From the NCBI GenBank assembly GCA_964016885.1, contig CAXHJY010000489.1, positions 128,298 to 192,297 of the forward strand: a stretch of DNA of 64,000 nucleotides, in the 5' to 3' direction. This DNA is from Eledone cirrhosa (Eukaryota). Positions 3,497-57,669 of the stretch are shown in pieces. The position numbers and the translations under genes are program-made. Numbering within the stretch: position 1 is the stretch's first letter; each line of letters starts with the position of its first letter. The notes under the pieces are model-generated. The model was not told the origin of the DNA, searched no databases, and saw nothing but the letters and a program-made list of their open reading frames with translations.

Positions 3497-5316
3497 TGGA
3501 GGCTGAGAGTAGGAGGTTTGCCAATGTTCTGCGACGGTAAGATCAGAGGCGTGCAGTGTTCCACATTGCAAGGCAGTGTATCAATGCAAATAAGGATGTT
3601 GTTGGAGATAAATGTCCGGAATGATGCGGTACACTTAGTGTCACAAATGATCAGAAAAAGGAGGTCGGGAAATGTCATTATGAGAGACTGATGAATGTGG
3701 AGAACGAATGGGAGAGAGAGAAATTACCCTCAGTAGATCCGACAGAGGGACCAGCTATTGAGATTGACGAATATAGGGTCCAAGAGGCGATTAAGGAAAT
3801 GAAAAATGGTAAGGCTGCTGGACTAGCGGGAATAGTTGCTGAGATGCTGAAGACATCAGGAAACGTAGGCACTAAACTGGTTGCACGCATCATCAATCAA
3901 GCTATATATGGTGGTGTCATACCCAAAGACTGGTGCAGCAGTATTCTCATAAATTGCTACAAAGGTAAAGGGATGCTCTGGAGAGGAGCAATTATAGGGG
4001 TATAAAAGTGATGGATCAGGTTATGAAAGTGGCAGAAAGGATATTAGCACAACTAATTAGAGAAAGGGTCAAACTAGATGAGATGCAGTTTGGTTTTGTG
4101 CCTGGGAAAAGTACAACAGATGCCCTCTTCTTGGTGAGACAGTTACAAGAGAGGTTCTTAGAGAAGAATAAGCCACTATACTTAGCTTTTGTTGACCTAG
4201 AGAAAGCCTTTGATAGGGTACCCCGATCTGTCATCTGGTGGTCCCTAAGGAAACTAGGTGTTGAGGAATGGCTTGTGAGGACAATGCAAACTTTGGTCAG
4301 AGGTGCTATCAGTAAAGTCAGGGTAAGAATGGACTTTTGTGAGGAATTCCAGATACAAGTAGGAGTACATCAAGGTTCGGTCCTCAGCCCGCTCTTGTTC
4401 ATTATAGTCCTCCAAGCCATAACAGAGGAGTTTAAGACTGGCTGTCAATGGGAACTTCTCTATGCTGACGATCTGGTTCTTATAGCAGAATCAGTAGAGG
4501 AGCTAGAGCATAAATTCTGGCTATGGAAACAGCAGTTGGAAGCAAGAGGACTGAGAGTGAACCTAGCTAAGACAAAAGTGTTGAGTAGAAAAGAGGACAA
4601 AACTCTGATTCCGTCAGGGAAATGGCCATGTTCGATATGCAGAAAAGGAACTGGCATAAATTCTATAAAATGCACACAATGCAGATCCTGGGTACACAAG
4701 AGATGTAGTGGGATAGCAGGCAAACTAACAGGTAGGGAGAAATACGTATGCAGTAGATGTACAGGGAAATTAGACAGTAGAAGTCGCATTGATAGACACA
4801 TTTTTCAAATGCAGGAGGGTGCTATAGAAGTGGTGGATAGCTTCCAGTACCTAGGAGATCAGATTAGCATGGGAGAGAGGTGTTCCGAAGCCATAGTATC
4901 TAGAATAAGGATGAGTTGGAAGAAGTTTAGGGAGCTGCTTCCTCTGCATGGTAGTGAGACATGGGCAGCAACTGCAGAGGATATGCGACGGATGGAGAGA
5001 AATGAGGCAAGCATGCTCCGTTGGATGTGCAATGTCAATGTGCATGAACGACCCAGCATGGATGTGTCGACAGAGAAACTGTGTCTGAGAGGGATAGAAC
5101 GTAGTGTGCGAGAGAGGAGACTGCGGTGGTATGAACATGTGATGCGCATGGAGGTTGACCGATGGGTGAAGAAGTGTCAGGAAATGCCAGTTCAAGGAAG
5201 ACGTGGTAGAGGTAGACCACGAAAAACATGGGCGGAGGTGGTGAGAACAGACCTCAGATCGCTGAAGCTCACGGTGGAGATGACGAAGGACCATGACAAG
5301 TGAAGAGATGCTGTGC
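3497..5316 (+). mobile_element. RTE-clade LINE family A, 5'-truncated and frameshifted RT
   Basis: ORFs 3691-4005 and 4008-5303 contain QFGF, AFVDLEKAFDRV, GVHQGSVLSPLLF, LLYADD, HGSETW and RGRPRKTW. Closely matches 38920-40820. Confidence 0.95.
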
Positions 5317-5381
5317 GAATTTCAACCGTTGAGGTTGTCTTTTGTCCGGGTATGTGAATATTTATTTATAAAACAAATCTG

Positions 5382-5447
5382 TATTTTATCTGATGAAAGC
5401 GCACCATAATTTTGCTTGGTCGCCCTTGAAATATATATAATAAAATA
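5382..5447 (+). ncRNA. Minimal type-I hammerhead ribozyme motif (putative PLE pseudo-LTR)
   Basis: tattttat-CTGATGA-(aagcgcacc...ggtcgccctt)-GAAA-tatata-TA-ataaaata. Stem I is a perfect 8 bp, stem II is eroded, and loop III is palindromic. Confidence 0.7.
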
Positions 5448-5621
5448 ATTATGGTTTTATAAATATAGTTTCCATTTATTAATATATTGTATATTTACTC
5501 CACTAAACTGTTGAGTGCATTATATCAGTTATAAAAATGTTTAAGCTTGTTGAATCCCAACAAATTAAATATAACCTCTGCATATATATATATATATATA
5601 AGATGAAATTTTTATATATAT

Positions 5622-7407
5622 CATTAAGTTAGTTGACCAGGTCATGAAGGTCACAAAAAGAGTTATAGCACAACTAATAAGATAATAAGAGAGCGAATTG
5701 ATCTAGATGAAATGCCGTTTGGGTTTGTGTCAGGTAAAAGTACCACAGACGCTCTTTTCCTTGTACGACAACTACAAGAGAAGTACCTAGCTAAAAGTAA
5801 ACCCCTCTACTTAGCTTTTGTAGACATGGAGAAAGCTTTTGACAGAGTCTCCCGCTCCATTATCTGGTGGGCTCTTAGAAAACTAGGTGTAGGTGAATGG
5901 CTTGTGAGAGCTATACAAGCTATGTATAATGAAACAGTCAGTAAGGTTAGAATTAACAATGAATATTGTGAAGAATTTAGTGTAAAAGTTGGCGTTCATC
6001 AAGGCTCTGTCCTTAGCCCCCTCTTATTTATTATTGCCCTTCAGGCTATAACAGAGAAGTTCAAGACCGGCTACCCATGGGAACTCCTATACGCAAATGA
6101 TCTAACGCTCATAGCTGAATCAATGGCTGAACTAGAGAAGAAATTACAAACATGGAAGCATGGCCTAGAATCAAAAGGCCTTAAAGTTAACTTGTCTAAG
6201 ACTAAAGTTCTAGTTTGTAGAAAGGAAAATAGGGCGCAGGTGCTCTTAGGGAAATGGCCATGCTCAGTGTGTAGGAAAGGAGTAGGCATAAATTCCATTT
6301 TATGTCCCAAATGCAAAGTATGGGTACATAAAAGATGTAGTGGGATCACAGGTAAACTATCTAAGAACGTAGACTTTATATGTGGCCAATGCTCAGGTGC
6401 AATAAGTAGCAAGTGTCCCAAGGATACTAGCTCCTTCTATTGCCCAGATGGTTCTATAGAAATAGTAGACACTTCCGTTACCTGGGTGACGAAATCAGCA
6501 GTGGTGGAGGGTGTTCTGAAAGTACAGTAGCCAGAGTCAGAACGGGATGGAAAAAGTTCAGAGAGCTTATACCGCTGTTGGCCACAAAAGGTTTCTCTCT
6601 AAAAATGAAAGGCAGTTTGTATGATGCCTGTATACGAACAGCAATGCTACATGGCAGTGAGACATGGGCATTACGTGCAGAGGACCTGCGTAGACTGGAA
6701 AGGAACGAAGCATGCATGCTCCGTTGGATGTGTAATAGTAATATACGTGAACAGCAAAGCATAAATGAACTAAGTGAGACATTATGAATAAGAGGGATCA
6801 GTTGCTGTTTACTTGAGAGAAGACTACGTTGGTATGGTCACGTGATGCGCATGAAAGACGACAGCTGCATAAAAAAGTGCAGGGCGATCAAAATTGATGG
6901 TAGTTACGGAGTAGGTAGACCCAGAAAAACCTGGGATGATCTCACACACTTACATCTCTCTAAGACAATGTCTCTGGACCGAGATCTTTGGCGCTACGCA
7001 GTAATACAGAAGACCCGCCTTGCCTATGTACAAAGCGAAACCTACAGTCAGTAGGCACCTCTTAACCAAATATACACTCCAATCCACTACCCCTACCATA
7101 TCCACCCACTCCCACCAACAGCACGAGAAAATGAGATCGAGATCGTGTAGGTGTCACGACAAAAAAACACTCACAGTCCACGCTGTAATGTGGTCGTGTA
7201 GGTAACACGGTAAAAAGTTCCCAGTTCCACACTGTAAATGTGGTTGGTGTTAGAAAGGGCATCCAGCCGTAGAAAACCTGCCAGATAGTCCTATATGAGC
7301 GAGACACGGTCACCCGACCAGCCTTGCCTCAAGTGGGACAACTCCCGTCTAACCCATGCTAACGTGGAAAATGGACGTTAAACGAAGATTATGATGATGA
7401 TGATGAT
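5622..7407 (+). mobile_element. RTE-clade LINE family B, 5'-truncated, with 3' UTR and (gat)n tail
   Basis: ORFs 5712-6530, 6440-6787 and 6842-7054 carry RT motifs (YANDL here for YADD). The 3' UTR matches 17630-18145 and 30439-30840. Confidence 0.95.
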
Positions 7408-10213: not shown

Positions 10214-10406
10214 ATATTAATAAGAGGAATTCCAACTTTGTCTGATTTACTCGTTTTATTTACAATCCTTTAAAATATATATAATATGGTATTATAATGA
10301 AATAGTATGATAGAATATTAAATTCTAAGTGTTAATTGAACAAGTACTTTCATGCTTTCGCAATCTTCAGGTTCATGATATGTGGTGACAGTCGAGTTTG
10401 CAATTT

Positions 10407-10409: not shown

Positions 10410-10661
<252 letters not shown>

Positions 10662-10664
10662 CTA

Positions 10665-10722
10665 ACTGCCTGATGAGATCATAGCCATTCAATGGCTATC
10701 ATCGAAATATATATATAGCAGT
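10665..10722 (+). ncRNA. Type-I hammerhead ribozyme motif
   Basis: actgc-CTGATGA-gat c atagccatt c aatggctat c atc-GAAA-tatatata-TA-gcagt, with a canonical core and a long stem II. Confidence 0.85.
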
Positions 10723-10744
10723 AAATAAAGGATTATGTATGAGT

Positions 10745-13700
10745 TCATGCAATTGACTTATGTTTCGTCAAGAAATAGCGGAAATAAAATCAAGCGTTCG
10801 TGTAGAACCCAACAATGAGGGATCTTACTGGAGTGCCTTGTTAAAAAATCTCCGCGTACCTCATGTTGAACCTAGACGCATTGAGAATGCCACTGAATCT
10901 GCAAACCACGAAGTGATTGCCATTGGTGTACCAGAAGACATAGTTGATCTTCAGGCATTTGCTGCCAGTTAATCCAAAGACCTGGGCTGTGCTCCCGCAA
11001 AGGGTGCTCTACGCCTTGGCCGACCAGGCCCGAAACCCAGGTTAATTAGACTGTCGTTTTCAAACTCAACTGAGGCACCTTCATACCTTGTAGCCTCTGA
11101 TAAAGCTAGGCGTGAAAGTCGGATTGCTTTCCGAACACGCCCTGGTCCTCCACCTGATGTCCGCCCAAAGTTGCGTGCTGCAGCTTCCTTAAACCGCAGC
11201 TCGGCAGAACATGAAAGCTTCAGCCTACGAGATGATGGGCAGATATGGAAGTTTGTTAACGCTGGCGAATAATGGAAAAGAGACACCAGCTGGTCTGAAA
11301 ACACTGTACCCACAACAACTGACAATAAAGAAACTGAAAAAACTCTGGGAAACTAATTCAGAACAACCTGCCATCCCCTGCACATAATCATAGACTGGAA
11401 TCAAGGTACAAATTGTTGTCCTTGAATGCACGTAGTCTATGCAATAAGATTCATCTTTTTGACTCCTACGTCAAAAGTATCAACCCTGACTTCATTACAG
11501 TCACGGAAACATGGGCACATCCCTTACTCTGTGATGGGGTTTTCAGCATGACTGGCTACAACCTGTTTCGTAAAGACCGCATTAATCGTCGTGGTGGTGG
11601 TGTAATGGTCTACGTTCGGTCAAATCTGTCGGCAATTCCTTGTGCTGATTTGAACCAATCACAGCAGAAAGTTTTTTTCTGCGATATACGTATGACCATG
11701 TCAACACTGCTACTTGGAGTCGTTTACCGTCCCCCAAATTACCATCAGGACACTCAACTTTGTGATATCCTCAGAGCTGCTGCCAGGAAGACAGCCACTT
11801 ATGTTTTCATTGTAGGTGACTTCAATCACCCTGAGATTGACTGGGATACCTTTCGTTGGCCGCCAAGTGCAAATGACTTCCTTGAGCTAGTGCTGGACTC
11901 GAGTTGGTCCCAGGTGGTCACCTCCCCAACGAGAGGTGACAACACTTTGGACCTACTCTTCACCACTACTCCTGAAACGGTCATTAGTGTTACTGCTGAG
12001 GAACCTTTAGGTGACTCTGATCATGCTATGATCATTGCCAATCTATCCCTCATGGGCAGTAACAAGAACCACAACCATCTCCAAACTGCTCACTTTGACT
12101 GGAATAAAGCAGACTGGAACTGTTACTGCACCGAATTGCAACGGCCAAACTGGCTTGAGTTCTACGACTCTGGAGATGTCAACATTGTACTCCAGAACAT
12201 CCTGAGCTCAATATGGACAGCATGTGCAGCATCGGTGCCACGTAAGCGGAAAAAACATCCCAAAAGCGCAATTTGGGAGACTGCAGCAGTCCGTCTTGCC
12301 AGAAAAGAACGGCGCAATGCTGAACAAATCAGACATTAGTAGGAAGAGGCGAAATAGATCGTCCAACCACCTCAAACAGGTGACAAAAAAGGCAGTGCTT
12401 CAATTTGAGCAGCGCATAGCAACCAGCCCTGACAGTAAGGTGTTCTGGAAGTATGTTCACTCAAAGCAGAGGCCTCACTCTCCAGTTGGTCCTCTTCGCA
12501 ATCCCCACACAAGCCAGGTTACTGACGACCCCAAGGAATGCGCAGAGCTCATTGCTGAATGCTATGCAGGCATTTTCACTATTGAAGACCAGAGTGTACC
12601 ATCTCCACCACCTATGACACCGGACTCTATTACAACCATGGAATTTACACCTGCAATGCTGCGACGTCACCTAAAAAATAAACGCAACCATGCCTCTCCT
12701 GGTGTTACGTACCTGCTTCTTAAACGTGGTGGGTACTTCCTTCTACACCAGTTATCACTCTTCTTCCAATTCTGTCTGAACAACAGTGCTACTCCAGAAC
12801 AGTGGAAAACTGCCAGTGTCATTCCTCTGTTCAAAAAGGGTGAATTATCGTCCAGTCAGTCTTACTAGTTGCATCGCCAAACTGATGGAATCCTGTGTCA
12901 GAGAAACACTTTGGAACTTCTGGAGCTCTCACAGTCTTATCCGGCCCTCGCAATTTGGATTTATCCCCAACTCCAGCTGCTGTGATCAACTGATAGAGTT
13001 TCTTGAGGACATCACCCGGATCACTGATGGCGGCTCATGGGTGGATGTTGTTTACCTTGACTTTGCGAAGGCCTTCAATTCTGTGCCACACAAAAGGCTT
13101 ATGGCAAAACTCTCTGCAATGGGTGTGAAGGATGATCTTTTTAACTGGTTGAAGTCCTTCATTCTCAGTCGAAGAGAGGTAGTCACGGTTCTGGGACAGC
13201 ATTCCTCACCATATGAGATGTCATCTGGTGTACCACAGGGATCTGTTCTTGGCCCCCTTTTGTTTGGGGCATATATTAATGACATAGATGCCAACTTAAA
13301 GAATGCCACAGTACTAAAGTACGCAGACGACATCAAGCTGTACCTTGAGATAAAAAGGACAGATCCTGAACACTATAGATCTTGCTTGCAGTCTGACCTG
13401 GACACAATGCAACAATGGATCTCAGACTGGCAACTCAAGCTAGCTGTGGACAAGTGCACCACCATGCATTTTGGGAGTAAAAACCCAGCGTCCACATACT
13501 CCCTCCACAGCACTAATATCAAGAAGTCTTCCTGTGAACGTGACCTGGGCATTACGGTCAGCAGCGATTTGCGTTGGACGAGGCACGTCTCTAAAATTGT
13601 CAAGAGGGCCGAGGGTGTCTTAGCATCACTCAGCAAGACCTTTGTCAGCCGCTCTCCAGATATCTATTTAAGGCTGTATACAGCTATGATGCGACCACAC

Positions 13701-14235
13701 TTAGAATTTGCATCACCAGTCTGGAACCCCTATCTTTCTCAGAACATTGACCGCCTAGAAACTGTTCAGAGACGTGCAACCAAGCGAATACCCTCCATCA
13801 GGCATCTACCATACTCTGAGCGCCTTGCTTCCCTGGGCATGGATTCATTGAAGCTCCGACGCCTGGCAACTGACTGGTAAACACCCACAAAATTGTTAAC
13901 CATGTTGCCAACAACAATCCTGAGTACCTTTTTGATTTCCATGTGCCTAACACACGTGGACATGCCCACAAAGTAAGAAAACAGCACAGTTCCCATGACT
14001 TTCGGAAACATTTTTTCACGCTCAGAGTTGCTGAAGCATGGAACAAACTACCTGCATCAGTGGTTAGCTGTCGAGACACTGCATCCTTTAAGGCCTCCAT
14101 GCTTCCCGAGATCCGCCAACACTACAGCTAACACATACACACATGTACTTCCCTGACATTTGTGTATTATTCTATGTACTATACATACACCTTTGACGAG
14201 TTGTAGTGCACCTAAGCACTTTACATAATAATTTC

Positions 14236-14250
<15 letters not shown>
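10745..14250 (+). mobile_element. CR1-clade LINE, near full length and decayed (ORF1 remnant + APE-RT ORF2, (att)n tail)
   Basis: ORF1-like RLGRPGPKPRLIRLSF. APE motifs LNARS, TETW, VYRPP, GDFN, SDH. RT motifs YRPVSLTS, YLDFAKAF, GVPQGSVLGPLLF, YADD. CR1-type C-terminus TRGH..FFTLRV..WNKLP. Confidence 0.92.
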
Positions 14251-14302
<52 letters not shown>

Positions 14303-14481
14303 TATAGGATTATCCGTGGAAACATTTGTAAGCACACAGAATAAATTACCTTTTTATGATGTCTACCTGTTATTATTCATTCTTTATATATATATATATA
14401 TAAAACGAAGGAAATGTGGTACGGAACCAGATGGACCATAACGCACCAAAGTACTCAATACTTAGGGTAGTAGAGTGGGTA

Positions 14482-14650: not shown

Positions 14651-15426
14651 ATGCTTTGGGAGGGTCATGTTGCCAATAAGAAACACACGCACCAGTGCTT
14701 TCACTCCAATTTATTTTAAATTAAATTTATAAATTTAAGAATTTATAAATTTCCGGTTGGCTGGGTGGTTCCACAACCGGACGGTTGTTCATATATTGTC
14801 AAAGTTCTTTCGTCACACATTCTGTGACCTCTTCAAGATAGAAAAGAATCATCTGTACTCCACCAACATGCTAAAATAGAACATAAGGGTAAATTAGAGA
14901 ACATAGAAATAAAAATAGAATCTACACACAGAAAAGACGCAATGTTTAGACAAATCACAGAGGCAATAAACATAAATGAACTCCAACCAAAACATGAATG
15001 GAATAGCAACATCACAACTTACAATTAAGGACAAAATGAAAACACACACACACATAGAACAAACAACCAACCAGTAACATGTAAATAAACAAATAAATAA
15101 ACAAATATAAACACACACAAACACCCAGATGTAACACATGCGCAAACTAAGCACACAACACACACAAAAACAAGATGGCGTAGGACAGAACAAAGGAGAG
15201 GCACAAAAACAAAGAAAAGAATCTCCAGTCACTGAAGAGGTCACAGAATGTGTGACGAAAGAACTTTGACAATATATGAACAACCGTCGGGTTGTGGAAC
15301 CAACCAACCAACCGGAAATTTATAAATTCTTAAATTTATAAATTTAATTTATAATAAATTGGAGTGAAAGCAACTGGTGTGTGTGTTTCTTATTGGCAAC
15401 ATGGCCCTCCCAAAGCATAACAATAT
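14646..15426 (+). mobile_element. 5'-truncated Penelope-like element with an inverted pseudo-LTR at its 5' end
   Basis: From 14834 it translates as SSVLHQHAKIEH..DAMFRQITEAININE..EWN* (GIY-YIG C-terminus). 14646-14835 is the reverse complement of ~15233-15423. It is flanked by (TA)n. Confidence 0.85.
15228..15270 (+). ncRNA. Minimal hammerhead ribozyme motif in PLE pseudo-LTR
   Basis: gtca-CTGAAGA-g-gtcaca gaatg tgtgac-GAAA-gaac-TT-tgac. Confidence 0.72.
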
Positions 15427-17633: not shown

Positions 17634-20600
17634 TCATCATCATCATCATCAGGTTTAGCGTCCGTGTTCCACGCTTGCATGGGTTTGGACGGGGGTTTTC
17701 CCACTTGAGGCAAGAGTGGTTGTCTTGCTCGCATAGGACTGTCTGGCGGGTTTTCTACAGTTGGATGCCCTTCCTAACACCAACCACATTTACAGTGTGG
17801 GGCTGGGAGGTTTTTACCGTGTTGCCTACACGGCCACATTACAGCGTGGACTGTCTGGCGGGTTTTCTACGGCTGGATGCCCTTCCTAACACCAACCACA
17901 TTTACAGTGTGGGGCTGGGAGGTTTTTACCGTGTTGCCTACACGGCCACATTTACAGCGTGGACTGTGTGTTTTTTTGTCGTGACACCTACACGATCACA
18001 TTTGTTTCGGCCTGGATGTTGTGGGACCAACATAACTTTACATTGAAAGGGGCGGTGTGGATGGGGTGGAGCTGGTGGGACGGGGGGGGGTGGGACGGGG
18101 GTTGATAGAGATGCCTACTGACTGTAGTAGGTTTTTACTTTGTATTTAGGTAAGGCGGGTCTTCTCTATTACTGAGTACCGCCAAAGGTCTCGGTCCAGT
18201 GACATTGTCTTGGAGAGGTGTAAGCGTGTGAGGTCGGAATTTATCAGCTCATCCCATGTTTTTCTGGGTCTGCCTACTCCGTGGCTACCGTCTATCTTTA
18301 TTGCCCTGCACTTTGTTATACAGCTGTCGTCTTTCATGCGCATCACGTGACCGTACCAACGTAGCCTTCTCTCGAGTAAACAACATCTGATCCCTCTTAT
18401 TTCTAATTTTTTCCTTAGTTCGTTTATGCTTTGCCGTTCACGTATATTACTATTGCACATCCAGCGGAGCATGCAAGCTTCGTTCCTCTCTAGTCTGCGT
18501 ATATCCTCTGCACACAATGCCCAGGTCTCACTGCCATGCAGCATTGCTGTTCGTATGCAGGCATCGTATAACCTGCCTTTCATTTTTAGGGAGAACCCTC
18601 TAGCGGCTAATAGTGGTATAAGCTCTCTGAACTTTTTCCATCCAGTTCTGACTCTAGCTACTGTACTTTCAGAGCACCCTCCCCCACTGCTGATTTTGTC
18701 ACCCAGGTAACGGAAGCTGTCCACTATTTCTATAGAACCCTCTACGCAGTTGAAGGAGCTAGTATTTTGTGGGCACTTGCTGCTACTTATTGCACCAGAG
18801 CACCGGCCACATGTAAAATCTATGTTCTTAGTTAGCTTACCTGTGATCCCACTACATCTTTTATGCACCCATACTTTGCATTTGGGACATAAAATGGAGT
18901 TTCTACCTACGCCTTTCCTACACACTGAGCATGGCCATTTCCCAGATGGGACTGCCGCCTTATTTTCTTTCCTACAAACTAGAACTTTAGTCTTAGCCAG
19001 GTTAATTTTAAGGCCTTTTGATTCTAGGCCGTGCTTCCATGTTTGGAATTTCTTCTCTAGTTCGGTCATTGATTCAGCTATGAGCGTTAGATCATCTGCG
19101 TATAGGAGTTCCCATGGGCAGCCGGTCTTGAACTCCTCTGTTATAGCCTGAAGGGCAATAATAAATAGTAGGGGGCTAAGAACAGAGCCCTGATGGACAC
19201 CAACTTTTACGCTAAACTCTTCACTATATTCGTTGTTAATTCTAACCTTACTGACTGTTTCTTTATACATGGCTTGTATAGCTCTCACAAGCCATTCGTC
19301 AACACCTAGTTTTCTAAGAGACCACCAGATAATGGAACGGGGGACTCTGTCGAAGGCTTTCTCCAAGTCGACGAAAGCTAAGTATAGGGGTTTACTTTTA
19401 GCTAGGTACTTCTCCTGTAGTTGTCGTACAATGAAAAGAGCGTCTGTGGTACTTTTGCCTGACACAAATCCGAACTGCATTTCATCTAGATCAATTCTCT
19501 CTCTGATTAGTTGCGCTATTACTTTTTCCGTGACCTTCATGACCTGGTCGATTAATTTAATGCCTCTATAGTTACTCCTATCAAGGGCATCTCCTTTTCC
19601 CTTATAGCAGTTAACGATGATGCTGCTACGCCAGTCCTTCGGAACAACCCCATTCTGTACGACTTGGTTAACTATCCGGGTGACCATGGTGTGTCCCACC
19701 GAACCAGATGCCTTCAGCATCTCAGCAACTATTTCCGAAGGACCAGCCGCCTTACCCGTCTTCATATCTTTGATTGCCTTGCTTATTGTACTACCCTGGA
19801 CTAACACTGCTGGCCCCTCTATTGGGTCGATGTGGGGGAGACTGTCTTTCTCCCATTTGTTCTCCTCATTTAGAAGCCTTTCGTAGTGACACTTCCAAGC
19901 TACGTTGTAGAACATGCTTGGACTTTCTTTCCTCTGCTTCCCTTCTTGCGAAGTACACTTGTCTCCTAGCTTCCCTCCTGGCCACCTGATAGTCTTCTCT
20001 ACTTCCCCCATCCCGCCATGCTTTCCAAGCCTGCTTTTTGGCCTTAATTGACTCCTCCACCTTACTGTTCCACCACCATGTTACTCTCCTCCTACCTACA
20101 GGCCTGCTCCAGCCACAGACTTCGTCTGCCGCCGTCAGCAGGTTTGCTCTCAGGAATTCCCCCTGTTCCTCTATATTATACGACTCTAATTGCTCTTCCT
20201 TACTGTCGAAAGCGTCAAGTAATATGCTTTGAAATTTATTTCTGGCTATGGGGTCCTTTAGCTGCCATATTTTTCTCCTGAGGATAGTCCTCTTCCGCTG
20301 TCTAGTACGTCTCGTCCTGACTATGAGGTCGCTAATTATCAGTCTATGTTGGGAGGTGAATTCTTCATGGGGGAGGGATTTAGTGTTAACAACAGACACT
20401 CTGTCACGTCTTCTGGTAAGGATATAATCTACCTGGCTTGTGTATTCCCCCGATCTATAGGTGATCAAGTGATTGTCTCGTTTTTTGAAGTTAGTGTTAC
20501 AGATAGTTAAGTTATTTGCGTCGCAGAATTCCAGGATTCTGGAGCCTTCCTCATTTCTAGTACCAAACCCATAGCCTCCATGGATTCCATCATAGCCGTC

Positions 20601-21365
20601 ACAATGTTGTCAAACGTGACCATTTAGGTCGCCTGCAATAACTATATAGTCACTGTCGGTTATTTGGGAGGTAGCGAGCATCAGTGTCTCGTAGAATCTG
20701 TCTTTTATAGCACCGGGCAGTCCGGATTGTGGTGCGTACGCAGATATTACTGTCACCGTAGTTTTATTGAGGACAAGTCTTATTTTAATTATTCTGTCGT
20801 TCACTCTATTTACGTCTATTATCTTATCTGCCCACTTTTCTGCTACCATGATTCCTACCCCACCCAACCCATTGTCATTTCCCACCCAGAAAAGCTTATA
20901 GCATCGTTCTTTACCCACGATGAATCTAGCCGACCCTCCCCTCCACCTGGTCTCTTGAATACAACAAACATCGACCTCCTTACGTTCAAGCATTTCTACA
21001 ACCTCGTTAGAGCGACTCTTTAAGGTGCCTACATTCATGGTACCAACTCTGAAGTTTTGGATTGCGTTTGGAGGGTGGGAGCGGTGGGGCGCGGGGGGGA
21101 TGGGGTTATGTTAGCCATCCTGGGCCGAAACAAGGCGGAGTGCTTTCATTCTCGTCCACGAGGTGAATTTGTCTTTATCTTTGGCATTGTCGCTGAGCGT
21201 CCACATTTTTCTCTCTTCAACTCTCCAGAATTCCGTAGTCCATCCATCATATCGAAAAGCAACCAGTTAAGCGATAGTATGGGCCTCTGACTTATGATTG
21301 GTTCACGTAATAATGGTGGTGCGTGGGGGCGGGTGGGAGGGATGATGGGTTGTTAGCGAGAATGT
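17630..21365 (-). mobile_element. RTE family B, near full-length (APE-RT-PHD), inactivated by stops, frameshift and deletion
   Basis: ORFs 20610-21038, 19866-20468 and 18146-20011 (YADD intact), with a 3' UTR and (gat)n tail. Confidence 0.96.
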
Positions 21366-22089
21366 AAGGTTTAAGATAAGATCGCCGTATTTTTGGCATA
21401 ATTTAACAATAAATGAAAATACAAGATTTGTTTTGTTTAAGAAAATACGATAGAGAAAATGCGGTGATAGGGAAAATATTATTTTTAGAGAAAAAATATG
21501 ATATAGAATGGTGAAAATATGATATAGTGTGAAATTAGGACATAGAATAGTGATTGAATGAATGGATTCGAATGGAGAGAAGAATCGAGAAAAATATTTG
21601 AACGTTACTTTATACCGCAAGAACAGCCATCATCCCATTTTAATTCCACTAAACACTATACATATTTCAATGGCCCAGTTTCATCATCCGATCATGATGT
21701 AAAATTTAGACAATTTCATCAGGTGTTAATTGCAGAATTAATTTCATAAGATAACAGGATTACAGAGAATAGAAAACAGAGGACTGATTTGATTTGGAGA
21801 TGGCCCACCAGTGGTATTGTAAGAGCTAACCATCCCTGAATGTCGCACAAGCATCAATGCTAAGTATGATAGATATATTAAGAAAAAAAAATGAAGTTTT
21901 GTTCACTTGTTAGTTTTTAGGTTGGGGTGATTATTCAACACTTGAGATCTCTGTTCAATATTTTGTATATATTTTATATTTCGATATCAATATCATCTTA
22001 GTTATGTCAATAGTGTTTTTGGAAAATGTACAAAATGTACAATTACGATCTTTGAGGAATTTTAGACTATATTTTATTATATCTATCTA

Positions 22090-30438: not shown

Positions 30439-33400
30439 TCATCATCATCATCATCATCGTCATCGTTTAACGTCTATCTTCCACGCTAGCATGGGTTTAG
30501 ACGGGAATGTCTCACTTGAGACAAGATTGGTTGTCTTGCTCGTATAGGACGGTCTGGCAGGTTTTCTACGGCTGGATGCCCTTCCTAACACCAATCACGT
30601 TTACAGTGTGGGCTGGGAGGTTTTTACCGTGTTACCTACACGGCCACATTACAGCGTGGACTGTGTGTTTTTTTGTCGTGACACCTACACGACCTCATTT
30701 ATTTAGGACTGGATGTTGTGGTACCAACATAACTTTACAGCGATAGGTATGGTGTAGATGGGGGTTGGGGTAGTGGGATGGGTGTGTATTTTTGGTTAAG
30801 AGGTGCCTACTGACTGTAGGTTTCGCTTTGAACTTAGGCAAGGCGGTCTTCTGTATTACTGCGTAGCGCCAAAGATCACGGTCCAGTGACATTGTCTTGG
30901 AGTGGTGTAAGTGTGTAAGGTCGGAATTTATCAAATCGTCCAAGGTTTTTCTGAGTCTGCCTACTCCGTAGTTACCTTCTATTTTGATCGTCCTGCACTT
31001 TTTTATACAGCTGTCGTCTTTCATGCGCATCACGTGACCATACCAACGTAGTCTTCTCTCGAGTAAACAGCATCTGATCCCTCTTATTCCTAATTTCTCA
31101 CTTAGTTCATTTATGCTTTGCGGTTCACATATTACACATCCAACGGAGCATGCATGCTTCGTTCCTCTTCAGTCTGCGCAGATCCTCTGCACACAATGCC
31201 CATGTCTCACTGCCATGTAACATTGCTGTTCGTATGCAGGCATCATACAATCTGCCTTTCATTTTTAGAGAGAAACCTTCAGCGGCCAATAGTGGTATAA
31301 GCTCTCTGAACTTTTTCCATCCCGTTCTGACTCTAGCTACAGTACTTTCAGATCACCCACCACCACTCTGATTTTGTCACCCAGGTAACGGAAGGTGTTC
31401 ACTATTTCTATAGAACCATCTGGGCAATGGAAGGAGCTAGTATCCTGTGGGAACTTGCTACTACTTATTGCACCTGAGCACCGGCCACATATAAAATCTA
31501 TGTTCTTAGTTAGCTTACCTGTGATCCCACTACATCTTTTATGCACCCATACTTTGCATTTGGGACATAAAATGGAGTTTCTGCCTACTCCTTTCCTACA
31601 CACTGAGCATGGCCATTTCCCAGAGGGGACCAGTGCCCTATGTTCCTTCCTACATACTAGAACTTTAGTCTCAGACAAGTTAACTTTAAGGCCTTTTGAT
31701 TCTAGGCCATGCTTCCATGTTTGGAATTTCTTCTCTAGTTCAGCCATTGATTCAGCTATGAGCGTTAGATCATCTGCGTATAGAAGTTCTCATGGGCAGC
31801 CGGTCTTGAACTCCTCTGTTATAGCCTGAAGGGCAATAATAAATTAGAGGGGGCTAAGGACAGAGCCCTGATGAACACCAACTTTTACGCTAAACTCTTC
31901 ACTATATTCATTGTTAATTCTAACCTTGCTGACCGTTTTTTTATACATGGCTTGTATAGTTCTCACAAGCTATTCATCAATACCTAGTTTTCTGAGGGCC
32001 CACCAGATAATGGAGCGGGGGACTTTTTCCAAGTCGACAAGAGCTAAGTATAGGTGTTTACTTTTAGATAGGTACTTCTCCTGTAGTTGTCATACAAGGA
32101 AAAGAGCGTCTGTGGTACTTTTACCTGACACAAACCCAAACTGCATTTCGTCTAGATCAATTCGTTCTCTGATTAGTTGTGCTATTACTCTTTCTGTGAC
32201 CTTCATGACCTGGTCAATTAATTTAATGCCTCTATAGTTTCCCCTATCTAGGGCATCTCCTTTACCGTTGTAGCAGGTAATGATGCTGCTGCTACGCCAG
32301 TTTTTTGGTATGACTCCATTCTATTACTTGGTTTACTATCTGGTTGACCATAGTATGTCCCACCATTCCAGATGCTTTCAACATCACAGCAACTATCTCC
32401 GAAGGCCCACCTGCCTTGCCTGTCTTCATATCTTTGATTCCCTTACTTATTACACTACCTTCAACTTGCACTGCTGGTCCCTCTATTGGATCGATGTGGG
32501 GCAGATTATCTTTTTCCTATTTATTCTCTTCATTTAGAAGCCTCTCGTAGTGACACTTCCAAGCTACCTTCTTATCAGCGTCAATGATGGCAAGTACACC
32601 ATCGTCATTACGGACACACTTCTCCCCAACAATATCACGATTTTCCTTGACACATTTCATAGCAATCCTGAATACCTCACGTTTTTGGTCCTCGCGTTGT
32701 AGAACATGCTTGAACTTTCTTTCCTCTGCTTCCCTTCTTGCGAAGTACACTTGTCTCCTAGCTTCCCTCTTGGCCACTTGATAGTGTTCTCTACTTCCCT
32801 CATCCCGCCATACTTTCCAAGCCTGCTTTTTGGCCTTGATTGACTCCTCCACCTTACTGTTCCACCACCAAGTTACTCTCCTCCTGCCTATAGGTCTGCT
32901 CCAGCTACAGATTTCATCTGTCGCCTTCAGCAGGTTAACTTTCAGGAATTTCCACTGTTCCTCTATATTGTACGACCATAATTGCTCTTCCTTACTGTCA
33001 AAAGCATCAAGTAATTTGCTTTTAAATTTATTTCTGGCTGTGGGGTCCTTTGACTTCCATATTCTTCTCCTTAGGGTAGTCCTCCTTTGTTGTCGAGTAC
33101 GTCTCGTCCTGACTATGAGGTTGCTAACTATGAGGCTATGTTGGGAGGGGCATTCTTCACGGGGGAGGGATTTAGTTATTACAACAGACACTCTGTCACG
33201 TCTTCTAGTAAGGATATAATCTATCTGACTGGCGTGTTCCCCTGATCTATAGGTGATCAAGTGATTGTCTCGTTTTTTTAAGTTTGTATTACAGATAACT
33301 TCTTGTTACAGATAGTTAGGTTATTCGTGTCACAGAATTCCAGGATTCCTCATTTCTAGTACCAAACCCATGGCCTCCATGGATTCGGTCATAGCCGTCA

Positions 33401-34180
33401 CAATGTTGTCCAACGTGACCATTTAGGTCGCCAGCAATAATTATGTAGTCACTGTCGGTTATTTGGGAGGTAGTGAGCATTAGCGACTCATAGAATCTGT
33501 CTTTTATAACGCCAGGCAGTCCGGATTGGGGTGCATACGTGGATATTATTGTCACAGTAGTTCTATTTAGGACAAGTCTTATTTTAATTATTCTGTCGTT
33601 CACTCTAGTTACGCCTATTATCTTATCTACCCATTTTTCTGCTAGCATGATTCCTACTCCACCCAGCCCATTGTCATTTCCCACCCAGAAAAGTTTATAG
33701 CATCGTTTTTTACCCACAATGAATCTAGCAGACCCTCCCCTCCACCTGGTCTCTTGAATACAGCAAACATCAACTTCCTTACGTTCAAGCATCTCTACAA
33801 CCTCGTTAGAGCGACCTTTTAAGGTGCCTACATTCATGGTACCAACTCTGAAGTTTTGGATTGCGTTTGGTGGGTGAGAAGGATGGGTTGGAGGGGTGAG
33901 GGAGATGTGGTTATGTTAGCCATCCGCGGCCGAAATAAAGAGGAGTCCTTGCATTCTCGTCCGGCAACATGAGGTGAATTTGTCTTTATCTTTGGCATTA
34001 TCATTGAGTGTCCAGATCTTTCAGACACTCCAGAATTCCATAGTCCATCTAGCATATCGAAAAGCAACCAGGTTTAAACTTAAGAAGTGATATTATAAGC
34101 CGCTGAATTATGATTAGACAAATAATAATGGTGGCGAGTGGGGGCGGGAGGGGTCTGGGGGAGTTAGCGAGAAGGTTATT
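30439..34180 (-). mobile_element. RTE family B, near full-length, multiple frameshifts
   Basis: ORFs 33316-33837 (APE), 32517-33260, 31337-31747 (PHD) and 30695-31033. Colinear with 17630-21365. Confidence 0.96.
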
Positions 34181-42827: not shown

Positions 42828-45800
42828 ACAGTCAGTAAGTTAGTGTGACCTTAGTTGAGCGATGAAATCACACCTCTGGTCCTCAGAAGTCTGTTAGTCA
42901 GTGTCACCTTAGCTGAGAAGTGAAAACACACCTCTGGTCCTCAGTACTCTGTTAGTTAGTGTTACCTTACCTGAGAAGTGAAAACACACCTCTGGTCTTC
43001 AGTATTCTGTTAGTTAGTGTTACCTTAGTTGAGAAGTGAAAACACACCTCTGGTCCTCAGAAGTCTGTTAGTTAGTGTTAAGTTAGCTGAGAAGTGAAAA
43101 CACACCTCTGGTCTACAGTAGTCTGTTAGTTAGTGTTAACTTAGCTGAGAAGTGAAAACACACCTCTGGTCCTCAGTAGTCTGTTAGTTAGTGTCACCTT
43201 AGCTGAGAAGTGAAAACACACCTCTGGTTCTCAGTAGTCTGTAAGTTAGTGTTACCTTAGCTGAGCAGGAAAACACACCTCTGGTCCTCAGTAGTCTGTT
43301 AGTTAGTGTCACCTTAGCTGAGAAGTGAAAACACACCTCTGGTCCTCAGTAGTCTGTTAGTTAGTGTTACCTTAGCAGATAGTGAAAACACACCTCTGGT
43401 CCTCAGTAGTCTGTTAGTTAGTGTTACCTTATCTGAGAAGTGAAAACACACCTCTGGTCCTCAGTAGTCTGTTAGTTAGTGTCACCTTAGCTGAGAAGTG
43501 AAAACACACCTCTGGTCCTCAGTAGTCTGTTAGTTAGTGTTACCTTAGCTGAGAAGTGAAAACACACCTCTGGTCCTCAGTAGTCTGTTAGTTAGTGTTA
43601 CCTTAGCTGAGCAGTGAAAACACACCTCTGGTCCTCAGTAGTCTCTTAGTTAGTGTTACCTTAGCTGAGAAGTGAAAACACACCTCTGGTCCTCAGTAGT
43701 CTGTTAAGCAGTGTCACCTTAGCTGAGAAGGGAAAACACACCTCTGGTCCTCAGTAGTCTGTTAGTTAGTGTTACCTTAGCTGGGAAGTGAAAACACACG
43801 TCTGGTCCTCAGTAGTCTGTTAGGCAGTGTTACCTTAGCTGAGAAGTGAAAACACACCTCTGGTCGTCAGTAGTCTGTTAGGCAGTGTCACCTTAGCTGA
43901 GAAGTGAAAACACACCTCTGGTCCTCAGTAGTCTGTTAGGCAGTGTCACCTTAGCTGAGAAGTGAAAACACACCTCTGGTCCTCAGTAGTCTGTTAGTTA
44001 GTGTTACCTTAGCTGAGAAGTGAAAACACACCTCTCGTCCTCAATAGTCTGTTAGGCAGTGTCACCTTAGCTGAGAAGTGAAAACACACCTCTGGTCCTC
44101 AGAAGTCTGTTAGGCAGTGTCACCTTAGCTGAGAAGTGAAAACACACCTCTGGTCCTCAGTAGTCTGTTAGTTAGTGTTACCTTAGTTGAGAAGTGAAAA
44201 CACACCTCTGGTCCTCAGTAGTCTGTTAGTTAGTGTTACCTTAGCTGAGCAGTGAAAACACACCTCTGGTCCTCAGTAGTCTGTTAGGCAGTGTTACCTT
44301 AGCTGAGCAGTGAAAACACACCTCTGGTCCTCAGTAGTCTGTTAGGCAGTGTTACCTTAGCTGAGAAGTGAAAACACACCTCTGGTCCTCAGTAGTCTGT
44401 TAGGCAGTGTCACCTTAGCTGAGAAGTGAAAACACACCTCTGGTCTTCAGTAGTCTGTTAGTTAGTGTTACCTTAGCTGAGCAGTGAAAACACACCTCTG
44501 GTCCTCAGTAGTCTGTTAGGCAGTGTTACCTTAGCTGAGCAGTGAAAACACACCTCTGGTCCTCAGTAGTCTGTTAGGCAGTGTTACATTAGCTGAGAAG
44601 TGAAAACACACCTCTGGTCCTCAGTAGTCTGTTAAGCAGTGTCACCTTAGCTGAGAAGTGAAAACACACCTCTGGTCCTCAGTAAGTCTGTTAGTTAGTT
44701 TTACCTTAGCTGAGAAGTGAAAACACACCTCTGGTCCTCAGTAGTCTGTTAGTTAGTGTTACCTTAGCTGAGCAGTGAAAACACACCTCTGGTCCTCAGT
44801 AGTCTGTTAGGCAGTGTCACCTTAGCTGAGCAGTGAAAACACACCTCTGGTCCTCAGTAGTCTGTTAGGCAGTGTTACCTTAGCTGAGAAGTGAAAACAC
44901 ACCTCTGGTCCTCAGTAGTCTGTTAGGCAGTGTTACCTTAGTTGAGAAGTGAAAACACACCTCTGGTCCTCAGTAGTCTGTTAGTTAGTGTTACCTTAGT
45001 TGAGAAGTGAAAACACACCTCTGGTCCTGAGTAGTCTGTTAGTTAGTGTTACCTTAGCTGAGCAGTGAAAACACACCTCTGGTTCTCAGTAGTCTGTTAG
45101 GCAGTGTTACCTTAGCTGAGCAGTGAAAACACACCTCTGGTCCTCAGTAGTCTGTTAGGCAGTGTTACCTTAGCTGAGAAGTGAAAACACACCTCTGGTC
45201 GTCAGTAGTCTGTTAAGCAGTGTCACCTTAGCTGAGAAGTGAAAACACACCTCTGGTCCTCAGTAGTCTGTTAGTTAGTGTTACCTTAGCTGAGAAGTGA
45301 AAACACACCTCTGGTCCTCAGTAGTCTGTTAGTTAGTGTTACCTTAGCTGAGCAGTGAAAACACACCTCTGGTCCTCAGTAGTCTGTTAGGCAGTGTCAC
45401 CTTAGCTGAGCAGTAAAAACACACCTCTGGTCCTCAGTAGTCTGTTAGGCAGTGTTACCTTAGCTGAGAAGTGAAAACACACCTCTGGTCCTCAGTAGTC
45501 TGTTAGTTAGTGTTACCTTAGCTGAGAAGTGAAAACACACCTCTGGTCGTCAGTAGTCTGTTAGGCAGTGTCACCTTAGCTGAGAAGTGAAAACACACCT
45601 CTGGTCCTCAGTAGTCTGTTAGGCAGTGTCACCTTAGCTGAGAAGTGAAAACACACCTCTGGTCCTCAGTAGTCTGTTAGTTAGTGTTACCTTAGCTGAG
45701 AAGTGAAAACACACCTCTCGTCCTCAATAGTCTGTTAGGCAGTGTCACCTTAGCTGAGAAGTGAAAACACACCTCTGGTCCTCAGAAGTCTGTTAGGCAG

Positions 45801-53900: not shown

Positions 53901-54209
53901 GAAACTACACTGAAGTGGGTTCATTTTAACTATATCCCACCTACAAGTTTATTTTATTTAAACCTTTATTCTGCTACAATAGTAAGATCTGGAATATTTT
54001 ATGTATACACTAAAACACTGTGTTCTTGCGCAAGATGCTTAAGTCCCCATTTCTATTCATGATAGAACTGAGGCTCCTATCATTAAAACACATCAGAAAA
54101 GTCTTATTAGATACAACTTCAATGGCAGCCAGTCATATCATATTGTTGCTGTTACAACAATATGAATTGACTGGGGCCCCTATTATTAAAATACCCAAGA
54201 AGGGTGCTG

Positions 54210-57110: not shown

Positions 57111-57160
<50 letters not shown>
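56475..57160. repeat. TG-rich minisatellite (gcatataagtgttgtgtgggtgtgtgtgt-like) and microsatellites
   Basis: Directly visible. Confidence 0.9.
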
Positions 57161-57164
<4 letters not shown>

Positions 57165-57290
57165 AGTATATGTTGGTTGTTTACCGACACCTCAGTATGC
57201 AGATTGGAGCACTCAACGTAGTACGCAGGTTGGTTTGTTTACTCCAGAGTAATGTAAAATAATTAAGTCAAATATGTAAAATTTTGATTC

Positions 57291-57619
57291 GTTTATTATA
57301 AATTATAGATATACTGCTATATATATTTCGGTGACAGCCATCATTGGCTGTGACCTTTTCAGGCAATCCGAATTGGTGTGGGAAAGACAGGTACACATGT
57401 TATTCTTCTAAGGAACTGGAATCATATGATTCCAGTTCCTCAGAAGAATAACAACACAACCAGGAGCTGGACATATAGATGTATTGACTGAGTAAAACAC
57501 ACTTCAACAATATGTGTACCTGTCTTTCCCACACCAATTCGGACTGCCTGAAGAGGTCACAGCCAATGATGGCTGTCACCGAAATATATATAGCAGTATA
57601 TCTATAATTTATAATAAAC
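57291..57619. mobile_element. Inverted pair of PLE-type pseudo-LTRs (~110-bp arms, ~105-bp spacer), each containing an HHR
   Basis: 57291-57402 is the reverse complement of 57509-57619. Confidence 0.85.
57543..57597 (+). ncRNA. Type-I hammerhead ribozyme motif
   Basis: actgc-CTGAAGA-ggt c acagcca atga tggctgt c acc-GAAA-tatata-TA-gcagt. The inverted copy at 57313-57367 has a broken CTGAAAA core. Confidence 0.85.
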
Positions 57620-57669
57620 AAGGCCAAATTATTTCATATATATATATATATATATATATCATATATATC

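What the first reader, a model, noticed from the sequence alone, without database searches (positions are those of the whole stretch)
10665..10722. Covarying HHR pair 47 kb apart with a conserved C-C mismatch in stem II
Seen at 10665: actgc CTGATGA gat-c-atagcca..tggctat-c-atc GAAA (ta)n gcagt. Seen at 57543: actgc CTGAAGA ggt-c-acagcca..tggctgt-c-acc GAAA (ta)n gcagt. There are two compensatory pair changes (A-T to G-C, T-A to C-G). The core differs only at the free position 7, stem I is identical, and the C-C mismatch is kept while the flanks diverge. Stem III is itself a (TA)n run, so the dimerising palindrome mimics the apparent target microsatellite. This is the strongest in-window evidence of structural selection.
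Basis: partly seen in the sequence, partly recalled or inferred. Interest (0 to 1): 0.75.

Follow-up and report, generated by a model that had tools for sequence, protein, structure and literature searches.

The report
Penelope hammerheads with fixed unpaired cytosine
The two motifs are hammerhead RNA folds, predicted to cut themselves in pairs, at the ends of broken copies of a known kind of jumping gene; over 100,000 related motifs in this genome keep one unpaired cytosine that the relatives checked elsewhere lack, which likely marks an undescribed structural contact.

Summary
Both motifs are real type I hammerheads. Each lies in a 5'-truncated end of a Hydra-clade Penelope-like retrotransposon (families A and B, 11,904 pattern matches together; long copies carry the RT plus GIY-YIG ORF 1.1-1.2 kb upstream).

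The two-copy covariation is overstated. Only one change (U-A/C-G) is fixed between the families; the A-U pair is a rare copy variant, since family A has G-U (44 of 46 copies).

The wider superfamily carries the argument. Of 119,766 genome-wide matches, 108,122 keep C opposite C/U at the fourth stem II position and only 520 have C-G. In 18 aligned variants that position never pairs while its neighbours covary fully. None of 25 published and 45 outside Hydra hammerheads has this layout.

Stem III is a fixed 8-nt palindrome whose central pair covaries, which points to dimers. Target mimicry is not supported: a sister family with AUGCGCAU also ends in (TA)n, and 0 of 31 copies end at the cleavage site.

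Cleavage is untested. This scan already reported the same superfamily on other DNA of this genome (e1-8670794).

The parts
10665..10722 (+). Type I hammerhead, family A. Stem I 10665-10669/10718-10722; core 10670-10676; stem II 10677-10703 with C10680xC10700; GAAA 10704-10707; palindromic stem III 10707-10716 (one extra TA); predicted cleavage after A10717
   Evidence: cleavage site inferred from hammerhead consensus
10598..10770 (+). 5'-truncated 3' end (pLTR remnant) of a family A Hydra-clade PLE, positions -72 to +94 relative to the core
   Evidence: 94% identity to the long copy L242
10407..10469 (-). Inverted arm of the same family A end (-72 to -9), stopping before the hammerhead
10466..10601 (.). 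(TA)68 run between the two arms, at the element's internal CATATG site
10771..14250 (+). APE-type LINE (endonuclease and RT pieces at 11338-13880) sitting between the PLE 3' end and the (TA)n run at 14250-14306; unrelated to the hammerhead
   Evidence: Pfam hits, junctions; boundaries approximate, later insertion inferred
57543..57597 (+). Type I hammerhead, family B. Core 57548-57554; stem II 57555-57580 with C57558xC57577; GAAA 57581-57584; stem III 57584-57591; predicted cleavage after A57592
57422..57636 (+). 5'-truncated 3' end of a family B Hydra-clade PLE (from -124), ending at (TA)n 57636-57668
   Evidence: 83% identity to L237
57155..57404 (-). Inverted arm of the family B insertion, with a hammerhead copy at 57313-57367 (G8A core change) and a roughly 100-nt extension into the element's 5' UTR, ending in (TA)n
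57398..57453 (.). Fold-back junction between the arms, centred on the internal CATATG
   Evidence: 28-nt arms, 96% complementary
5382..5447 (+). Third, diverged member of the same hammerhead superfamily (family E): different stem I and stem II sequence, same C-C at the fourth position, same stem III
   Evidence: family E linked to a Hydra-clade ORF in L148

Best explanation
The two motifs are type I hammerheads at the 3' ends of truncated Hydra-clade Penelope-like retrotransposons, predicted to cleave as dimers through their palindromic stem III, and the unpaired C in stem II is likely a selected docking site rather than a mimic or an accident. Shown: the link to RT plus GIY-YIG ORFs; tandem pLTR-ORF-pLTR and inverted-arm layouts; 3' ends about 50 nt past the cleavage site at (TA)n; covariation of stems I-III; a never-paired fourth stem II position. 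Inferred: in a tandem transcript the upstream and downstream hammerheads swap strands and pair their 8-nt palindromes; cleavage after AUA releases a unit-length RNA whose 5' end lies about 200 nt before the start codon; a tandem or religated circular RNA with an intact hammerhead is then copied by target-primed reverse transcription into (TA)n, mostly giving short 5'-truncated copies like these two. Inferred with less support (about 0.45 alone): the lineage lost the G partner of an ancestral C-G pair and now uses the open C as a position-specific tertiary contact with stem I or its A-rich 3' flank, possibly offsetting a weaker U-A pair at 15.2-16.2.
For: ORF linkage: an intact 894-aa frame with RWK, DKT, YRDD, CxCX5C, CxxC and CxH lies 1.2 kb upstream of a family B hammerhead (L237); family A ORF pieces lie 1.09 kb upstream in L242 and L243. 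GIY-YIG weak Pfam hit, E 0.0004, below cut-off. The AlphaFold model of a sister-family ORF (pLDDT 86) has telomerase TERT as top PDB hit. These match the Hydra clade definition (PMC8557442 section 11). Tandem layout in L069, L148, L218. Mismatch: C with C/U 108,122, C with A/G 4,287 of which C-G 520, non-C 7,357 (controls 51, 115, 38, 636). In 18 aligned variants column 19:48 is unpaired 18 of 18, while 17:50, 18:49 and 21:46 pair 18 of 18 with 4, 3 and 3 pair types and 20:47 pairs 17 of 18. The layout spans three protein clades plus a singleton on the endonuclease tree. Outside Hydra hammerheads pair this position in 42 of 45 (C-G commonest, 19); the other 3 fit a shifted register; a looser scan of all 78 loci found 0 with the layout. 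Dimer: the central pair of the 8-mer, impossible in a hairpin, pairs 18 of 18 as U-A, U-G, C-G or A-U; predicted monomer A15.1-U16.1 pairing is below 0.09 in all 11 copies folded, and the dimer fold beats two monomer ensembles by 2.7-6.2 kcal/mol for the four A and B copies. Precedent: palindromic stem III and low, dimer-dependent cleavage (PMC4209133); I-II tertiary contacts depend on exact geometry (PMC3088659).
Against: No cleavage or expression data. No partner for the C was found: it is nearly invariant, so covariation cannot reveal one, and no universal flanking base stood out; AATAAA follows the cleavage site in 133 of 229 copies but in 0 of 35 AUGCGCAU copies. Families are related, so shuffle tests overstate significance; R-scape was not run. 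The dimer fold did not beat the monomer ensemble for 4 of 11 copies (D, G, G1 and a truncated K copy). A small family with canonical C15.2-G16.2 also shows C-U (about 21 of 100 rows), so the mismatch is not strictly tied to the U-A pair. A U-C subfamily exists (row O). 29 of 78 outside loci gave no hammerhead under the strict scan. Rfam hammerhead models are absent from the listed matches (41 lower-scoring rows were not shown).
Confidence: 0.7

Rival explanations
1. The mismatch is a brake: it weakens the base of stem II so that most transcripts stay uncleaved and full 3' ends remain available as reverse-transcription templates.
For: Closing the pair in silico stabilises the active fold by 5.8-6.7 kcal/mol and raises lower stem II pairing from 0.21-0.97 to 1.0 in 10 intact copies; in family A the 3' C pairs instead with G8 in a core-sequestering fold. 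All 31 A/B copies checked carry sequence past the cleavage site.
Against: The gap between active fold and ensemble changes by only 0.0-0.9 kcal/mol in those 10 copies. A brake needs neither a fixed position nor a C on the 5' side (94% of matches). The core-sequestering fold is absent in family B.
Confidence: 0.25
2. The open C is a recognition mark for the element's own RT/endonuclease protein, which binds the hammerhead near the 3' end to start reverse transcription.
For: The hammerhead lies a median 43-56 nt from insertion 3' ends in the four largest stem III classes; position and 5' base are fixed within one lineage of the protein tree.
Against: Outside Hydra elements have homologous proteins and no mismatch. 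A conserved hairpin right at the 3' end (69 of 112 extended copies) is a better candidate for that role. No binding data.
Confidence: 0.2
3. Stem III mimics the (TA)n target, so that the cleaved RNA end anneals to nicked target DNA and primes reverse transcription.
For: AUAUAUAU or AUAUGUAU is the commonest stem III and looks ancestral within the superfamily; cleavage would leave a 3' end in (UA)4.
Against: 0 of 31 A/B copies end at the cleavage site. The AUGCGCAU group (24,525 pattern matches) ends in (TA)n in 18 of 36 copies, with 16 more running on into the extension; AUGAUCAU in 7 of 14. All 25 published Hydra families with a listed hammerhead have AC...GU stems, and 24 of them are listed as (TA)n-targeting.
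Confidence: 0.07
4. The mismatch is a neutral inherited trait of one founder element, tolerated but not selected.
For: All carriers may form one clade (RT quick tree, support 85). The two-copy evidence alone is weak.
Against: Every neighbouring pair has been replaced by compensatory changes while the protein diverged to 40-50% identity, yet C stays and the partner varies among C, U and A but not G at family level.
Confidence: 0.08

Closest known systems
Hydra-clade C-terminal EN+ Penelope-like elements and their hammerheads (Craig et al. 2021, PMC8557442; e.g. Hydra-1_Obim, Hydra-2_Amil, Penelope-1_HM)
   Same: Single RT plus GIY-YIG ORF with RWK, DKT, CxCX5C, CxxC and CxH; (TA)n insertion; type I hammerhead near the 3' end; weak first pair of stem II; palindromic stem III; tandem and inverted truncated copies.
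   Different: Long stem II with an unpaired C at the fourth position (0 of 25 published families, 0 of 45 outside motifs); U15.2-A16.2 and an AUA site instead of C15.2-G16.2; elements about 4 kb with a 1.1-1.2 kb 3' UTR rather than under 3 kb; over 100,000 motifs in one genome.
PLE minimal hammerheads (Cervera and De la Pena 2014, PMC4209133)
   Same: Located in pLTRs, long helix II, short helix I, palindromic helix III, dimer-dependent model, thousands of solo and inverted copies; a bulge in mid helix II is described for Drosophila virilis Penelope.
   Different: No extra nucleotide between A9 and 10.1; an 8-nt stem III; a 1x1 C mismatch at a fixed position across many families is not described in the parts read.
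Animal non-LTR retrozymes (Cervera and de la Pena 2020, PMC7229834)
   Same: Type I hammerheads at very high copy number (126,247 in axolotl), dimer activation, circular RNA intermediates proposed.
   Different: These copies are truncated ends of autonomous ORF-bearing elements, dispersed or inverted, not 150-450 bp tandem repeats; no canonical loop 1-loop 2 contact is evident.

Membership tests
Type I hammerhead ribozyme | Core CUGANGA, GAAA and UH around three helices, stem I open | tested here: met
   invariant columns in 18 variants
Type I hammerhead ribozyme | Covariation of helices I and II | tested here: met
   14 of 17 named pairs with double changes, 0 of 500 shuffles reach the score; relatedness not corrected
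Type I hammerhead ribozyme | Match to an Rfam hammerhead model | tested here: not met
   no hammerhead family among listed matches; curated models do not cover this variant, and 41 low rows were not shown
Type I hammerhead ribozyme | Self-cleavage 3' of H17 | not testable with these tools
   needs an assay
PLE dimer-type hammerhead | Self-complementary stem III too weak for a monomer | tested here: met
   215 of 229 copies self-complementary; central pair covaries; monomer pairing below 0.09
EN+ Penelope-like element | Single ORF, telomerase-related RT followed by GIY-YIG endonuclease | tested here: met
   (fold search on sister family H; Pfam RT matched only 2 of 43 relatives)
EN+ Penelope-like element | pLTRs, partial tandems, inverted 5'-truncated copies, terminal extension | tested here: met
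   L069, L067; window sites
Hydra clade | RWK and DKT motifs | tested here: met
   family B both motifs (L237, L238); family A DKT seen, RWK region not in the open frames fetched
Hydra clade | CxCX5C linker, CxxC and CxH in the endonuclease, no cysteines between GIY and YIG boxes except as in Hydra | tested here: met
   CxCX5C, CxxC and CxH found in A and B; absence of CCHH judged by eye
Hydra clade | Insertion into (TA)n | tested here: met
   38 of 46 A copies end in TA; 22 of 46 B copies end in TA and 22 run into the extension
Hydra clade | Phylogenetic grouping with the named Hydra reference proteins | not tested
   tree used public homologues with the same motifs, not the published reference set
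Non-LTR retrozyme | Non-coding 150-450 bp tandem repeats each with a hammerhead | tested here: not met
   copies are truncated ends of ORF-bearing elements
Naiad PLE | N-terminal endonuclease, no canonical hammerhead | tested here: not met
   endonuclease is C-terminal

The most novel reading that the evidence does not exclude
A lineage of Hydra-clade Penelope elements has evolved a new hammerhead subtype in which an unpaired C at stem II position 4 forms an undescribed tertiary contact that replaces the usual loop-loop interaction and makes the dimer cleave efficiently at an AUA site. That would explain how PLE hammerheads, slow in vitro so far, can work in cells, and over 100,000 natural variants would serve as a ready-made mutational scan.
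Probability: 0.3. Interest if true: 0.65.

Novelty: new variant of a known kind. Interest (0 to 1): 0.4.

Why it matters
The role of hammerheads in Penelope-like elements is still open: tested examples cut slowly and may need dimers or helpers (PMC4209133). This superfamily offers two clean handles. Covariation of the central palindrome pair is comparative evidence for intermolecular pairing, and a single position held unpaired across deeply diverged families predicts one decisive mutation. Families A and B still have copies with long open frames, so ribozyme and retrotransposition tests are feasible. The two window copies themselves are ordinary truncated remnants, and the element class is known.

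Tried and rejected
Rfam scans listed no hammerhead match, only low-complexity miRNA hits. The ORFs next to site 1 belong to an APE-type LINE, not to the hammerhead's element. Naiad was considered first because of (TA)n targeting and rejected on domain order. Retrozyme was rejected because long copies encode RT and endonuclease. Single-sequence structure prediction failed (pLDDT 33) and was repeated with an alignment. A PDB sequence search found nothing. AATAAA as the universal 3' partner or poly(A) signal failed in the AUGCGCAU family (0 of 35). A strict link between the mismatch and U15.2-A16.2 was weakened by one small family. Core sequestration as a general switch holds for family A only; the K copy used there has a truncated stem I and was set aside. 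Literature searches for the mismatch or for these families found nothing beyond Craig 2021. Lunse et al. 2017 on PLE hammerhead variants was not available and file 1 of the PMC4209133 supplement was not searched; either could show a similar mismatch. One search fetched an irrelevant paper from a misremembered id.

Full report
1. Observation. The two motifs are present at 10665-10722 and 57543-57597 on the + strand, with identical stem I, a core differing only at position 7 and a C-C mismatch as the fourth position of stem II. They fold better than shuffles (z -2.0 and -3.1). They are members of repeats: a 20-nt pattern has 11,904 matches in the 3.0-Gb own genome, control 0. These fall into family A (site 1) and family B (site 2).

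2. The two-copy covariation is weaker than claimed. Among 46 family A and 46 family B copies in the fetched loci, pair 6 is a true fixed double change (U-A in 45 A, C-G in 46 B). Pair 2 is G-U in 44 A copies and G-C in 45 B copies; A-U occurs in site 1's own locus only, although 29 further loci had been picked as its closest matches. One more A-U copy is listed. A and B share 46 of 55 hammerhead positions, 63% of the ORF and about 45% of the 3' UTR and tail. The hammerhead as a whole is therefore conserved, but two retained Cs prove little.

3. Host element. Longer copies carry an ORF upstream. L237 has an intact 894-aa frame ending 1.2 kb before a family B hammerhead; L242 and L243 have family A frames ending 1.09 kb before theirs. 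The proteins show RWK (family B), DKT, YRDD, CxCX5C, CxxC and CxH, the marks given for the Hydra clade of Penelope-like elements, which insert into (TA)n and carry canonical hammerheads (PMC8557442, sections 3, 6 and 11 read). The endonuclease has a weak GIY-YIG hit. A model of a sister-family ORF (pLDDT 86) has telomerase TERT as its best PDB match. The only homologue with an organism name among 43 is from a cephalopod. L069 shows hammerhead-ORF-hammerhead 4.1 kb apart plus an inverted copy; the upstream cleavage site lies 208 nt before the ATG.

4. Local anatomy. Site 1 is a 173-nt family A end with a short inverted arm across (TA)68; a LINE follows directly at 10771 and the TA run resumes at 14250. 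Site 2 is an inverted pair joined at a fold-back; the left arm carries a core-mutated hammerhead and an extension into the 5' UTR. Both are non-coding remnants.

5. The superfamily. Relaxing the pattern revealed far more motifs: 67,208 with other stem I sequences (control 156) and 24,525 with a non-TA stem III (control 5). Families C, D, E, G1, H, H1, H2 and probably M sit beside Hydra-type ORFs at 40-50% protein identity to A and B; no ORF was found for K, G, N, F, I or O. With stem III fixed only as AUNNNNAU, the fourth stem II position is C with C/U in 108,122 matches, C with A/G in 4,287 and non-C in 7,357 (controls 51, 115, 636). C-G accounts for 520 (control 38); of the first 100 listed, 22 are an unrelated satellite and the rest are scattered single copies of many families. 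The purine class is dominated by families with C-A. The non-C class shows mutants, deletions, nested matches, chance hits and one small U-C subfamily. Counts are pattern matches, not annotated copies.

6. Covariation across families. I aligned 18 hand-picked variants, one per recognisable family plus the two sites. The fourth position is unpaired in 18 of 18. Its neighbours pair in 18, 18, 17 and 18 of 18 with up to four pair types; 0 of 500 shuffles reach the covariation score and slid controls are far lower. An independent clustering on flanks alone (229 copies, 14 clusters of two or more) gave the same picture; its one C-G cluster is a tie set by a deleted copy. Families are related, so these are not p-values. 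On the endonuclease tree the layout occurs in three supported or near-supported clades and a singleton (the RT tree there is only the quick version).

7. Outside comparison. In File S2 of PMC8557442, 0 of 25 Hydra families have an internal mismatch at this position and all have AC...GU in stem III (read by eye). In 78 Hydra-like loci from metagenome contigs (best 80 of 383 kept), 49 gave a hammerhead; 42 of 45 distinct motifs pair the fourth position, most often as C-G (19), and all 45 have C15.2-G16.2. A looser scan found 0 with the mismatch layout. The simplest history is loss of the G from an ancestral C-G pair (inference). In the own genome the mismatch with canonical C15.2-G16.2 has only 264 matches, below its control of 1,379, though one small family is visible.

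8. Stem III. It is an 8-nt palindrome: AUAUAUAU, AUAUGUAU, AUGCGCAU, AUGAUCAU, AUACGUAU or AUGUGCAU; 215 of 229 copies are self-complementary (many loci were fetched with patterns that fixed the outer two pairs). The central pair cannot form in a hairpin, yet it stays complementary through double changes. Folding gives monomer stem III a probability under 0.09 and favours the dimer for A and B. This agrees with the dimer model in PMC4209133 (parts 1-2 of 4 read) and PMC7229834 (passages). Mimicry is not needed: AUGCGCAU and AUGAUCAU families also end in (TA)n, insertion ends lie a median 43-56 nt past the cleavage site, and 0 of 31 A/B copies end at it.

9. Mechanism. Shown steps are the linkage, layout, junctions and covariation. 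Cleavage, dimer formation, unit-length or circular templates and the role of the C are inferred. I favour a position-specific tertiary contact (about 0.45), because both position and 5' base are fixed and because stems I and II dock side by side in hammerheads (PMC3088659, passages). A brake (0.25) fits the 6 kcal/mol cost but not the specificity; protein recognition (0.2) and neutrality (0.08) remain.

10. Novelty. The element class and its hammerheads are known. The fixed unpaired C with a U-A stem III was not found in six literature searches; Lunse et al. 2017 could not be read (known by title only from PMC6765202, passages) and one supplement file was not searched. bioRxiv 2026.07.22.740005 was read in part 1 of 5 only. 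This scan noted the same superfamily before on another piece of this genome; that note is not independent support. Verdict: new variant of a known kind, interest 0.4.

Noticed in passing
window 10337-10375 (-): A second, different type I hammerhead 30 nt from the inverted arm of site 1: U-U at the base of a 3-bp stem II, palindromic AGUACU stem III, resembling the published Penelope-HM type.
   Followed up: partly
window 57422-57428 and 10598-10603; loci L001-L073: 5' truncation and fold-back points cluster at a CATATG that aligns between families A (-72) and B (-122) in an otherwise diverged UTR: about 10 of 34 B and 2 of 13 A copies start within a few bases of it. At site 1 the junction holds (TA)68.
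   Followed up: partly
L069 3130-3145, L148, L218; window 57155-57250 (-): A TACTC...GAGT hairpin starts just past the usual 3' end in 69 of 112 copies that run on into the 5' extension, across many families; a second GCTC...GAGC hairpin follows in B and E (by eye). Candidate signal for the start of reverse transcription.
   Followed up: partly
window 15228-15270 (+) and about 14790-14835 (-): Inverted pair of another hammerhead family with an extra nucleotide before a fully paired stem II; the minus copy has a changed first core base.
   Followed up: no
window 21652-21727 (-): Decayed-looking hammerhead with AUAUGUAU stem III and a U-C mismatch at the fourth stem II position.
   Followed up: no
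L017 1882-2864 (-): Three hammerheads in tandem about 469 nt apart with a fully paired stem II and a short palindromic stem III; retrozyme-like.
   Followed up: no
L035 2026-2103 (-); L006 418-501 (-); L036 959-1041 (+): Two further hammerhead families with very long stem II (about 45-50 nt) and CCAUGG or CCGAUCGG palindromes.
   Followed up: no
window 42842-53904 and 59492-61411: An 11-kb satellite of 58/174-bp units and a 47-bp satellite of 41 copies.
   Followed up: no
window 3969-6530, 18146-21110, 31337-33915: Several LINE copies with a PHD finger directly after the RT domain.
   Followed up: no
G000:C28:119675000-119684999 (L238): A 7.4-kb tail-out inverted pair of nearly full family B elements, both with long open frames, suggesting recent activity.
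   Followed up: partly
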